This document shows, in pieces, positions 8,930 to 22,351 of a stretch of DNA of 27,428 nt (position 1 is its first letter; each line of letters opens with the position of its first letter). Made by a program: the position numbers and the translations under genes. Source of the DNA: Octopus sinensis (taxonomy: Eukaryota); NCBI RefSeq assembly GCF_006345805.1, contig NW_021836487.1, forward strand, positions 1-27,428. The letters run 5' to 3'. Under the pieces are notes generated by a model, which did no database searches, was not told the DNA's origin, and saw only the letters and a list, made by a program, of their open reading frames with translations.

Positions 8930-8960
<31 letters not shown>

Positions 8961-9171
8961 TTGTTTGCATGTCTGTGTTTATCCCCCAACATCGCTTGAT
9001 AACCGATGCTGGTATGTTCACGTCCCCGTAACTTAGCGGTTCGGCAAAAGAGACCGATAGAATAAGTACTAGGCTTACAAAGAATAATCCCTGGAGTCAA
9101 TTTGCTCGACTAAAGGTGGTGCTCCAGCATGGCCGCAGTGAAATGACTGAAACAAGTAAAAGAGTTAATGA
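8767..9171 (+). mobile_element. Full-length CORE-type tRNA SINE with internal microsatellite
   Basis: tRNA-like head, CORE-like GCACCTTGGGCAAGTGTCTTCT, (TA)(TG) spacer, tail ending GAAACAAGTAAAAGAG. Confidence 0.9.
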
Positions 9172-9531
9172 GTATATAATATACTTATTCATATGTATAG
9201 GACTGCCACATTCTGTTGGCAAATACCATATATATATATATATATATGTGTGGTGTGTGTGTGTTTGTTTGCATGTCTGTGTTTATCCCCCAACATCGCT
9301 TGATAACCGATGCTGGTATGTTCACGTCCCCGTAACTTAGCGGTTCGGCAAAAGAGACCGATAGAATAAGTACTAGGCTTACAAAGAATAATCCCTGGAG
9401 TCAATTTGCTCGACTAAAGGTGGTGCTCCAGCATGGCCGCAGTGAAATGACTGAAACAAGTAAAAGAGTTAATGAGTATATAATATACTTATTCATATGT
9501 ATAGGACTGCCACATTCTGTTGGCAAATACC

Positions 9532-9545
<14 letters not shown>
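8931..9545. repeat. 304 bp tandem duplication of the SINE 3' half plus unique flank
   Basis: 9116 matches 9420; the units are bounded by (TA)n(TG)n tracts. Confidence 0.92.
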
Positions 9546-9583
<38 letters not shown>

Positions 9584-10168: not shown

Positions 10169-10343
10169 GGCATAGGAGTGGCTGTGCACTTAGTAGCTTG
10201 CTTACCAACCACATGGTTGCGGGTTCAGTCCCACTGCGATGCAGCTTGGGCAAGTGTCTTCTACTATAGCCTCGGGCCGACCAAAGCCTTGTGAGTGGAT
10301 TTGGTAGACGGAAACTGAAAGAAGCCCGTCGTATGTATATATA

Positions 10344-10376
<33 letters not shown>

Positions 10377-10835
10377 AGTTACGGGGACAAACACAGACAT
10401 ACAAACATGCACACACACACATATACATATATATATACGACGGGCTTCTTTCAGTTTCCGACTACTAAATCCACTCACAAGGCTTTGTCAGCCCGAGGCT
10501 ATAGAAGATACTTGCCCAAGGTACCACTCAGTGGGACTGAACCCAGAACCATGTGGTCCGTAATTAAGCTACTTACCACACATATATATATATGTATGTA
10601 TGTATCTATATGTAAACACACTCATGCATACATACGTTTTTTCCCACCACCACTTGACAACCGGTGCTGGTGTGTTTACGTTTCTGTAGCTTAGACATTC
10701 GGCAAAAGAGACCCATAGAAGAAATACTATGCTTAGAAAAAAATATTCTGGGTTGATTCATTCGGCTAAAAATTCCTCAAGATGGTGACCCAGCATGGCC
10801 GCCATCTAATGACTTAAGCAAGTAAAAGATAATAA
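10169..10835 (+). mobile_element. CORE-type SINE (head 10169-10335, tail 10635-10835) containing an inverted copy
   Basis: Head and tail match 8767-9171. Confidence 0.8.
10376..10581 (-). mobile_element. CORE-type SINE, inverted and internally deleted
   Basis: 10437-10581 is the reverse complement of the head. Confidence 0.85.
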
Positions 10836-11490: not shown

Positions 11491-11811
11491 CTTTCGACCG
11501 GTCTTCTGCACAGTTTCCGCCCACCAGATCCCTCTCATAGAATATTCGTCAACTGAAGGTCTTTCTTGTTCGGCATCTTCCACAGTTGTCGTTCTGTAAG
11601 ATCGAGCTTGGTACCGAATGACTACGAAGCGAACTACTCCAAAAGAGATTAAATGCCGAATTGATATGTGCTGTAGGTATCAATATCTATAAAGCTGAAA
11701 TGCAAAAATGTTTTTGGTCTCTTGGTTAAGAATGGGTCAAAATAGCTAGTCTTTCTATAACTTCAATCTCGATACTTCTTGATCAGACCTCGTACATATA
11801 TATGTATATAT

Positions 11812-12059
11812 ATAAATTAATCAAAATAAAAACATGATGCCAAGGATTCAGCGGTACATATGTTTCGGGCCTTTATTAGGGCCTTTTGCATCCCCAACGT
11901 AGAATTTTTGATGTAATACATGTCCTTGAGGTAGTAGTTGTGCGCGGCTGAAAAAGGCCACAGACAAACATTATGCATTGTTATCAATCGTCTAATAAAG
12001 GCCCGAAACATATGTACCGCTGAATCCTTGGCATCATGTTTTTATTTTGATTAATTTAT
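11812..12059. repeat. Perfect 68 bp inverted repeat with 112 bp spacer, Penelope-terminus-like
   Basis: 11812-11879 is the reverse complement of 11992-12059; each arm has CTAATAA-AGGCCC-GAAAC-ATAT-GTA. Confidence 0.9.
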
Positions 12060-12079
12060 TGTGATTAATTTATGTATAT

Positions 12080-12637
12080 ATATTATATATATATTGTATA
12101 AAGGGCATTATTACACATAAATGCCTCACACTAGGAGGGACAAAGTCATTACTACCAAAAATTATACTAATCAACCCAAATGCGTTTTTCAAAGCAAGAC
12201 ATTTAAAAATGAATTATGTTTTCTTATCACCGTGATTTCACATACAACTTGCGTCTAATGATCGTCAGCAGAACTGATTCTGAATACATCATAAATAACC
12301 AACCTTATGTAGCGAAGACGAAACAGCAACTGTTCCTCCGGCCAAGCACATGAATGTTTATAAACATTCCATGTGCTTGGCCGGAGTGAACAGTTGTCTG
12401 TTCGTCTTCGCTACATAAGGTTGGTTTATTTATGATGTATTCAGAATCAGTTCTGCTGACGATCATTAGACGCAGTTGTATGTGAAATCACGGTGATACA
12501 GAACATAATTCATTTTTAAATGTCTTGCTTTGAAAAACTGCATTTGGTATGATTAGTATAATTTTTGTATATGACTTTGTCCCTCCTAGTGTGAGGCATT
12601 TATGTGTAATAATGCCCTTTACAATATAGATATAATT
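12080..12637. repeat. Spacer-less palindrome with ~278 bp arms
   Basis: Centre GTTTA|TAAAC at 12360/12361; the arms differ mainly by small indels. Confidence 0.92.
12450..12504 (+). ncRNA. Minimal type I hammerhead ribozyme motif (mirror copy on minus strand 12218-12274)
   Basis: Stem I GTTCTG/CAGAAC, core CTGACGA (12456-12462), stem II CAT/ATG with a U-U closing pair, GAAA (12484-12487), near-palindromic stem III ATCAC-G-GTGAT, AUA cleavage triplet. Confidence 0.7.
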
Positions 12638-12782
12638 AATTTGTTCAAAAGAAAAAATTATTTTCGGATTCTTTTCTTTTATGAGGTTTCACGCTAGCTA
12701 CCCGATAATTTCTTGTTAAATCCCTTATTAAGAGATTATCCTTAATTGTTTCCTTATCTATATATACTATATATATAGATAT

Positions 12783-12813
<31 letters not shown>

Positions 12814-13434: not shown

Positions 13435-13604
13435 AAACAATTGCAGCGTGGAAGGTGTTTGTAAGCCCTTTAAGAAACACAAAAAAGCCGTTCGATTCAC
13501 TTCAACATTTAAACTTAAACTTAAACTTAAATGTTGAAGTGAATCGAACGGCTTTTGTGTGTTTCTTAAATGGCTTACAAACACCTTCCACGCTGCAATT
13601 GTTT
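13435..13604. repeat. Inverted repeat with ~78 bp arms and an (ACTTAA)n loop
   Basis: 13435-13513 versus 13527-13604, about two mismatches. Confidence 0.9.
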
Positions 13605-13658
13605 TCGTTTCAGCACACGATCTCAGATCAAATCACTTGCTATGCGAGTACATCTCCG

Positions 13659-14392
13659 TATATATATTAAATTAGAGATAAAACCACTATTAGGCAAATC
13701 AAACAGTGAAAATCATAAACCAATGCATAGAAATAAAATTAATTGATAAAAAATATATAAAATATAAAATTCAAAATTTAAATTATTTAAATTTAAGTTA
13801 AATTTAAAAAATTATTTAATTAATAATTTATACGTATAAATTTATATATATACAGATATTATATATATATATATTTTATTATTATTATTATTATATATTA
13901 TTATTATTATTATTATTATTATGTTTTTTTAATATATATAACTATCAAAAAGTATTTAAAGTTTAATATAAGATAAAGAGTAAAACCACTACGATCGTTT
14001 CATGCCCATAAACCAATTCGAATAACAATAATTTAAATTCAATTAATAATTCGAATTATAGTTATAGTCAATCTTCAGGTTAATTATAATATTTAAATAA
14101 ATAATCAGAAATATTTACTCTTTATCTTATATTAAACTTTTAATACTTTTTGATAGTTATATATATTAAAAAGAATAATAATAATAATAATAATATATCA
14201 TAAAAATTTATAAGTATAAATTATTAATTTAAATAATTTTTTAAAATTTTAACTTTAAATTTAAATAATTTAAATTTTGAATTTTATATTTTATATATTT
14301 TTTATTAATTAATTTTATTTCTATGTATTTGTTTATGATTTTCACTGTTTGATTTGCCTAATAGTGGTTTTATCTCTAATTTAATATATATA
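13659..14392. repeat. Nested AT-rich inverted repeats forming one long fold-back
   Basis: Outer arms ~13659-13845 and ~14203-14392; inner arms ~13900-13984 and ~14114-14195. Confidence 0.88.
13982..14085 (-). ncRNA. Hammerhead-like motif with extended stem II
   Basis: Minus strand CTGAAGA-T-TGACTATAA...AATTCGAAT/ATTCGAATT...TTATGGGCA-T-GAAAC-GATC-GTA. Stem III ACGATCGT is a perfect palindrome; stem I is weak. Confidence 0.5.
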
Positions 14393-14400
14393 TGGTGGTG

Positions 14401-22224: not shown

Positions 22225-22268
22225 ACAGTCTGACGAAGGCTAGCGAACCGAAACTTAGAAATTACTGT
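22225..22268 (+). ncRNA. Minimal hammerhead-like motif, probably decayed
   Basis: Stem I ACAGT/ACTGT, CTGACGA-A-GG...CC-GAAAC; stem III is mismatched and the triplet is AUU. Confidence 0.45.
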
Positions 22269-22351
22269 CACCTCTCGTAAAACTTCAGTATGTGTGTGTG
22301 TGTGCGTGAGTGTACCTGTTTGTGTGCCTGTGTACCCATATACATATATAT

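What the first reader, a model, noticed from the sequence alone, without database searches (positions are those of the whole stretch)
12080..12637. Spacer-less ~555 bp palindrome with a hammerhead ribozyme core on each strand
Seen: two ~278 bp arms meet with no loop. The + strand has a complete type I hammerhead layout at 12450-12504 (6 bp stem I, CUGACGA, GAAA, self-complementary stem III, AUA site). The mirror copy is on the minus strand with an altered stem I. Known: Penelope-like elements carry minimal hammerheads with palindromic helix III that work as dimers, and often leave inverted termini. Inference: this is a small non-coding fold-back retroelement whose transcript from either strand would be a rod-like RNA holding a ribozyme and its antisense. 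It could be a retrozyme-like unit, a strong ADAR/Dicer substrate, or both.
Basis: partly seen in the sequence, partly recalled or inferred. Interest (0 to 1): 0.75.

Follow-up and report, generated by a model that had tools for sequence, protein, structure and literature searches.

The report
Hammerhead retrozyme, two-armed Penelope-style insertion
This palindrome is one short copy of a young, protein-free repeat carrying a conserved hammerhead (self-cutting RNA) motif; its copies sit in TA runs as two back-to-back arms ending at two different fixed points, likely because a borrowed Penelope-type enzyme starts copying the RNA twice, once from each side of the cut.

Summary
The palindrome and hammerhead layout are real, but the palindrome is not the unit. 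Both arms are pieces of a 477-nt non-coding monomer (514 exact hammerhead matches in G000), and the insertion runs on to 12757. Of 107 family loci, 91 are two-armed, all head-to-head; 79 pair an arm ending at monomer position ~280 with one ending at 407, and none has both arms ending at the same site. Outer ends abut (TA)n. Arms reach 14.5 units, and the two arms of one element are near-identical. In 26 of 91 the junction is symmetric, as here; in 11 of 76 neither arm can be a copy of the other. An autonomous Penelope-like element (PLE) in this genome leaves the same footprint (7 of 7 pairs). Hammerhead stems covary across 21 relatives. One probable RNA run shows A>G clusters. Verdict: a metazoan non-LTR retrozyme, likely mobilised by two-site PLE priming. 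This copy has one hammerhead per strand and is probably a dead end; its 'altered stem I' is likely sequencing error. The partner PLE was not found; cleavage and circles are untested. The scan noted this architecture before in other repeat families of this genome.

The parts
12082..12360 (-). Left arm: 0.6 of a retrozyme monomer (positions 473 through 477, then 1 to ~280), ending at the fixed '280' site in a TA run
12361..12757 (+). Right arm: 0.85 of a monomer (to position 407), ending at the fixed '407' site
12357..12364 (.). Head-to-head junction centred on the self-complementary TTTATAAA that exists in the monomer (8-nt overlap)
12450..12504 (+). Type I hammerhead motif; predicted cut after 12498; U.U at the base of stem II
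12218..12274 (-). Mirror hammerhead motif; stem I 3' strand disturbed by indels that are likely sequencing errors
12641..12757 (+). 'Tail' (monomer 281-407, 127 nt in the family) present on one arm only; lies between the two inferred priming sites
12073..12081 (.). Left TA-rich target flank (short; continues into the TA-like arm end)
12758..12808 (.). Right (TA)n target flank

Best explanation
This is a short insertion of a 477-nt hammerhead-bearing non-coding repeat whose copies lie in (TA)n as two head-to-head arms ending at two different fixed sites, likely written by a borrowed Penelope-like reverse transcriptase that primes once from each cut target strand. Shown: the monomer, tandem arrays, the head-to-head layout, one arm per end site, TA targets, near-identity of the two arms, covarying hammerhead stems. 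Inferred: (1) arrays are transcribed, cut by the hammerhead and circularised. (2) A PLE RT/GIY-YIG protein, probably a dimer, nicks both strands of (TA)n. (3) Each 3' end primes inside the RNA, one at ~280 and one at 407, on one template or sibling templates. (4) Each RT runs a variable distance, up to 14.5 laps. (5) The two cDNA ends are joined by microhomology or short templated patches. In about 30% of cases both arms stop at the same point, by snap-back of one cDNA or a shared template end, and give a spacer-less palindrome like this one. This copy has one hammerhead per strand, so it cannot release a monomer; a read-through transcript would pair the ribozyme with its antisense and be edited by ADAR.
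For: Of 107 loci (20 chosen blind to ends, 80 by a 407 end, 7 others) 91 are two-armed head-to-head: 79 with ends 280+407, 5 with ~250+407, 7 interrupted or other, 0 with the same end twice; blind set 11, 2, 1 of 14. 171 of 173 outer ends abut TA runs, about half of them selected for that. 11 of 76 elements have arms that cannot be copies of each other. Arms of one element differ by 0.26% against 2.2% between elements, closer in 50 of 50; 9 element-private variants are shared by both arms. Arm lengths correlate in asymmetric elements: rho 0.63, n=53; 0.55, n=32. A young PLE with RT and GIY-YIG domains (620 ends) shows one arm per end site with a 38-nt tail in 7 of 7 head-to-head pairs. In vitro, a PLE protein nicks and extends both strands of AT-rich DNA and starts at two internal RNA sites that bound the tail (PMC11167929). 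Hammerhead stems covary: 12 of 19 pairs with double changes, 0 of 500 shuffles reach the score.
Against: No autonomous PLE sharing sequence with the monomer was found; the one PLE-retrozyme join, L181, is a one-off (0 of 29 other copies). Symmetric junctions are far more common than chance (26 of 91 against 3.7) and often centre on template palindromes or hairpins, which two independent cDNAs do not explain by themselves. 16 of 107 loci were not scored as two-armed. 17 private variants are on one arm only. The 280 end is itself TA-like, so it could be a repair join rather than a priming site. No cleavage, circle or strand-specific RNA data; contigs cannot tell a circle from tandem read-through.
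Confidence: 0.7

Rival explanations
1. Single priming plus fold-back: one cDNA is made, its 3' end snaps back and copies itself, and the copy is joined to the other target end at the TA-like 280 site. This is close to the self-priming reading of PLE palindromes in PMC3846280.
For: 26 of 91 junctions are symmetric within 6 nt and nearly all keep the same register. Three independent elements fold at the same natural hairpin near position 376. This window's junction is an 8-bp palindrome.
Against: In 11 of 76 elements the shorter arm is not contained in the longer, e.g. L052 (371-407 and 186-280), L076, L077. Either arm can be the longer one. It may hold for the symmetric subset only.
Confidence: 0.12
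2. PLE-mobilised by two-site priming, but from linear multimeric transcripts of existing arrays; the hammerhead and circles play no part in transposition.
For: PLEs form tandems, and hammerhead cleavage was not needed for insertion in vitro (PMC11167929). 8 of 9 predicted frog retrozyme dimers did not cleave (bioRxiv 10.64898/2026.07.22.740005). The U.U at the base of stem II may weaken this ribozyme, and its fold is 1.2 kcal/mol above the local minimum.
Against: Units within long arrays are nearly identical (0-0.25% substitutions in 12 of 15 arrays) and carry element-private variants in both arms. Stems covary across families. 13 arm 5' ends fall in the 17 nt after the cut site against 2 in positions 121-137 before it, though RT stalling at the structure could do the same. 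This rival shares most steps with the best explanation.
Confidence: 0.3
3. Satellite DNA expanded by unequal crossover, with inversions made by DNA repair; no RNA intermediate.
For: Tandem arrays of near-identical units.
Against: Hundreds of dispersed loci with two precise ends, random 5' truncation and TA targets, and the same footprint as a coding PLE.
Confidence: 0.03
4. The palindrome is a fold-back read or assembly artefact of a small unplaced contig.
For: The contig is 27 kb, has many indel errors, and this junction occurs once. Reads were not checked.
Against: The arms end at different family-specific sites with unrelated flanks; 25 other loci, nearly all on large contigs, show symmetric junctions.
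Confidence: 0.03

Closest known systems
Metazoan non-LTR retrozymes (PMC7229834, passages and Discussion read; bioRxiv 10.64898/2026.07.22.740005, parts 1-3 of 5 read)
   Same: Non-coding, low-GC (33%) tandem monomers with one type I hammerhead each; structured as a circle; coexist with PLEs. A U.U at the base of stem II also occurs in axolotl HHR_Amex2, which cleaves.
   Different: Monomer 477 nt, above the 170-400 nt of the 2020 paper but inside the 51-972 bp of the preprint. The parts of the two papers that I read do not describe head-to-head arms, two fixed ends, or (TA)n targeting. No target duplication can be read inside TA runs.
EN+ Penelope-like elements (PMC8557442 and PMC3846280, passages; PMC11167929, parts 1-2 of 4)
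   Same: Partial tandems, an inverted 5'-truncated copy, a tail on one end only, palindromes at the inverted junction, AT-rich or microsatellite targets, two internal RT start sites.
   Different: No ORF; tail of 127 nt rather than 30-40; arms are whole multimers up to 14.5 units; full rather than minimal hammerhead; no sequence link to a coding PLE found.
MRC1 and other non-autonomous Chlamys elements (PMC8557442, one passage)
   Same: Non-autonomous PLE derivatives with multicopy head-to-tail insertions.
   Different: Those resemble their autonomous partner at the 3' end and belong to a group reported to lack canonical hammerheads.
LINE-1 twin priming (recalled, not read here)
   Same: Two target-primed cDNAs joined 5' to 5', giving an inversion.
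   Different: In L1 the second site is variable and set by microhomology; here both sites are fixed, there is no poly(A), and the arms overlap in sequence.

Membership tests
Metazoan non-LTR retrozyme | [quoted passage not shown] | tested here: met
   477-nt monomer, arrays to 14.5 units, 514 exact core matches. The window copy itself holds less than one unit per arm.
Metazoan non-LTR retrozyme | No protein coding; no LTR | tested here: met
   Longest sense ATG ORF 41 aa; a 98-aa antisense ORF is not kept in subfamilies or the sister family; no direct terminal repeats.
Metazoan non-LTR retrozyme | Transcribed | tested here: inconclusive
   Contigs in four runs, one recorded as RNA, three guessed; A>G clusters in X1. 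Family level only; species match unknown.
Metazoan non-LTR retrozyme | Self-cleavage and circular monomeric RNA | not testable with these tools
   End-to-start joint in all four runs fits a circle or tandem read-through equally. Circular fold z = -6.4 against 40 approximate dinucleotide shuffles.
Type I hammerhead ribozyme | Core CUGANGA, GAAA, NUH with three helices | tested here: met
   Core and stem III were selected by my search pattern, so their invariance is no evidence; stems I and II were not selected and covary (5 of 6, 3 of 3 and 4 of 5 pairs).
Type I hammerhead ribozyme | G10.1-C11.1 pair | tested here: not met
   U.U in this family; G-C in 9 of 21 relatives. A cleaving precedent with U.U exists (PMC7229834).
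Type I hammerhead ribozyme | Match to an Rfam hammerhead model | tested here: not met
   No hit at E<=1 in the window or E<=10 in the monomer.
PLE-mobilised element | Inverted 5'-truncated copy, tail on one end, microsatellite target | tested here: met
   same footprint in a coding PLE of this genome.
PLE-mobilised element | Sequence shared with the pLTR of an autonomous PLE | tested here: inconclusive
   None in 69 PLE loci except neighbouring retrozyme copies; only the best 150 of 5029 GIY-YIG candidates were scored and about 40 loci from that list fetched.
Autonomous PLE | RT plus GIY-YIG ORF | tested here: not met
   No ORF in monomer or window copy.

The most novel reading that the evidence does not exclude
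The family is a genomic record of the whole retrozyme cycle: a PLE dimer binds one 477-nt RNA circle, primes both cut strands of (TA)n at two fixed sites, strictly one site per strand, rolls both ways for up to 14 laps, and sometimes runs off at the hammerhead cut. That would give a general two-site twin-priming explanation for the PLE tail and inverted copy, and structural evidence that animal retrozymes move as circles on PLE machinery.
Probability: 0.4. Interest if true: 0.75.

Novelty: new variant of a known kind. Interest (0 to 1): 0.5.

Why it matters
Two published open questions meet here. Which enzyme moves animal retrozymes has been argued from co-occurrence and pLTR similarity (PMC7229834; bioRxiv 10.64898/2026.07.22.740005). 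How PLEs make their inverted copy and one-sided tail is unresolved (PMC8557442, PMC3846280, PMC11167929). A young family with hundreds of short, mappable insertions gives a sharp rule (one arm per start site, never the same twice) and two exact RNA positions to test with purified PLE protein. The head-to-head layout also makes most insertions a potential source of long dsRNA for ADAR. The window's palindrome as such is an ordinary, probably inactive copy.

Tried and rejected
Rfam: no hammerhead match. L181, a degenerate PLE ORF joined to a related monomer, looked like the parent pLTR, but 0 of 29 other copies of that PLE share the join. No similarity between the monomer and the 3' end of the young coding PLE or other fetched PLE loci. 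A second copy of the window's junction: not found; other hits were at control level, and L237 is a single-armed family copy. A conserved ORF in the monomer: none. Pure fold-back, satellite and read-artefact readings: see rivals. Consensus fold of monomer 195-410 across 7 families gives a long-range stem enclosing the 280 site but weak covariation (-0.18 kcal/mol), so it is only a lead. Runs X6, X9 and X11 show no editing pattern. Literature searches listed no paper describing this family or two-site twin priming for PLEs or retrozymes; subscription journals and preprint supplements were not covered, and repeat databases could not be checked.

Full report
Observation. The two arms are present and meet without a loop at TTTATAAA, 12357-12364. 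The + strand hammerhead layout at 12450-12504 is as described, with the predicted cut after 12498. The right arm continues beyond the palindrome to 12757. Against a family monomer the window differs almost only by single-base indels (21 gap columns, 3 terminal substitutions), and the altered minus-strand stem I occurs in no other fetched copy. It is most likely read error on a small contig. The host is a repeat-rich animal genome of 2.7 Gb; that it is an octopus comes from my recall of its repeats and an earlier scan note, not from a test here.

The unit. The arm belongs to a 477-nt, 33% GC monomer in tandem arrays; the best-scoring copies are 97-100% alike. There are 514 exact matches to a 24-nt core pattern and 274 exact right ends followed by ATAT. 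No ORF is conserved. A sister family has 2252 matches, and further relatives 893; those aligned are about 70-87% alike and many end at the same two sites. Monomer position 1 is window 12362.

The ribozyme. Rfam does not detect it. I aligned 21 hammerheads picked as one per variant type. With a structure that I set by hand, 91.8% of cells pair, 12 of 19 pairs change on both sides, and 0 of 500 shuffles reach the covariation score; slid controls pair 18-41%. The core and stem III were fixed by the search pattern and the sequences are related, so only stems I and II count. This family has U.U at the base of stem II; an axolotl hammerhead with that mismatch cleaves 22% in an hour as a monomer and better as a dimer (PMC7229834, passage). 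Stem III is a near-palindrome that can form an intermolecular duplex. Activity is untested.

The insertion footprint. I mapped 107 loci: 20 chosen by the core pattern, 80 by the 407 end, 7 others including the window. 91 are two-armed and head-to-head. 79 pair a ~280 end with a 407 end, 5 pair a ~250 end with 407, and 7 are interrupted or end elsewhere. None has the same end twice. In the blind set the counts are 11, 2 and 1 of 14 two-armed, with 6 single. One tail-to-tail 407/407 pair (L248) is separated by a TA run and reads as two insertions. 16 loci were not scored as two-armed; one of them (L278) has two arms further apart than my 40-nt limit. 171 of 173 outer ends abut TA runs; the 407 ends of the selected set do so by construction. 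73 of 182 arms exceed one unit and the longest is 14.5 units. Junctions show overlaps of 2 nt or more in 42 cases, blunt or 1-nt joins in 19, and inserted letters in 30, the longer ones often copied from the monomer; this resembles polymerase theta joining (recalled).

One template, two starts. Across the 50 elements with enough overlap, the arms of one element differ by 0.26% and differ from other elements by 2.2%; 9 element-private variants are on both arms and 17 on one. In 11 of 76 elements neither arm contains the other (three elements left out for incomplete or uncertain lengths), so the second arm is not simply a copy of the first. Arm lengths correlate in asymmetric elements. Yet 26 of 91 junctions are symmetric within 6 nt, against a permutation mean of 3.7 and a maximum of 12 in 20,000, often at short palindromes or a natural hairpin of the monomer. 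The window is one of these. Snap-back of one cDNA or a shared template end could each explain them; I cannot separate the two. 13 arm 5' ends lie at positions 139-155, just after the cut site, and 2 at 121-137 (binomial p 0.004). Bins at 173-206 are as full, and RT stalling at the ribozyme fold is an alternative, so this only suggests cleavage in vivo.

The likely enzyme. The genome holds PLEs with long open frames carrying RT and GIY-YIG domains. Their cysteine linker fits the Neptune/Nematis type as described in PMC8557442; no tree was built. One young family has 620 exact ends in TA runs. In 7 of 7 head-to-head pairs taken from the first 100 matches, one arm ends at its first site and the other 38 nt further; two more pairs agree. 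In vitro, an anole PLE protein nicks and extends both strands of AT-rich DNA, is predicted to be a dimer, and starts at two internal RNA sites that bound the tail (PMC11167929). The actual partner of this retrozyme was not found.

RNA. Laid on one monomer, run X1 (RNA by guess, organism coded) shows 42 A>G among 55 changed places on the hammerhead strand, and two of its contigs carry 32 and 23 differences; the other three runs do not show this. That fits ADAR hyper-editing of fold-back RNA from this family. There is no matched DNA, a few A>G are subfamily variants, and the locus of origin is unknown. All four runs join monomer end to start, which a circle or a tandem transcript would both give.

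Comparison and novelty. The family meets the tested criteria for a metazoan non-LTR retrozyme and carries the known PLE footprint. Inverted copies, tails and junction palindromes are in print for PLEs, and a PLE origin for retrozymes has been proposed. I found no paper that reports this footprint for a retrozyme or the one-site-per-arm rule, within the limits of the library; preprint supplements were not seen. PMC4209133 was read in part 1 of 4. Earlier notes of this scan describe the same architecture in other repeat families of this genome; I read them after reaching my view, and they are not independent support.

Verdict. Real; an ordinary, probably inactive copy of an informative family. 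New variant of a known kind, interest 0.5.

Noticed in passing
L068:4930-6635 and L270:4444-6138: A 1.7-kb element (96% alike in the two loci) sits at exactly monomer position 45, about 45 nt upstream of the hammerhead, with a duplication of roughly 15-19 bp. It encodes a gag-like frame with a weak zinc-knuckle match (E 0.035) and no RT was seen: a site-specific parasite of the retrozyme. Earlier scan notes mention a similar insert.
   Followed up: partly
window 11793-12075: Directly left of the finding, another inverted-repeat element flanked by TA-rich sequence, with a degenerate minimal-hammerhead-like motif on each arm (11992 +, 11879 -); similar sequence in L049 and L115. Probably a second PLE-type insertion in the same TA run.
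   Followed up: partly
window 13435-13604 and 13656-14395: Two more inverted-repeat elements (94% hairpin of 170 bp; 76% over about 800 bp), each with similar sequence in several fetched loci.
   Followed up: no
window 10192-10573: Two copies of a common short repeat face each other tail-to-tail across TA/CA runs, giving a 79% inverted repeat; it caused the top spurious Rfam miRNA hit.
   Followed up: no
window 22230-22270: A CUGANGA ... GAAAC motif on the + strand, possibly another minimal hammerhead.
   Followed up: no
L113-L116, L310-L316: A young PLE family with a 781-codon open frame, 620 exact ends in TA runs, partial tandems and a 38-nt tail: a good candidate for in vitro work.
   Followed up: partly
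L181:5013-7298: A degenerate PLE ORF and 3' region joined without a TA run to a related retrozyme unit; a one-off among 30 copies.
   Followed up: yes
L182-L186: Hammerheads with the same stem III but no similarity to the monomer and no PLE ORF match within 5 kb; further families of unknown layout.
   Followed up: no
monomer 205-350 across 7 families (A2): Conserved motifs on either side of the 280 site can pair to form a long-range stem, a candidate protein-binding element; covariation is weak.
   Followed up: partly
window 8930-9573: A 304-bp tandem duplication at 98% identity.
   Followed up: no
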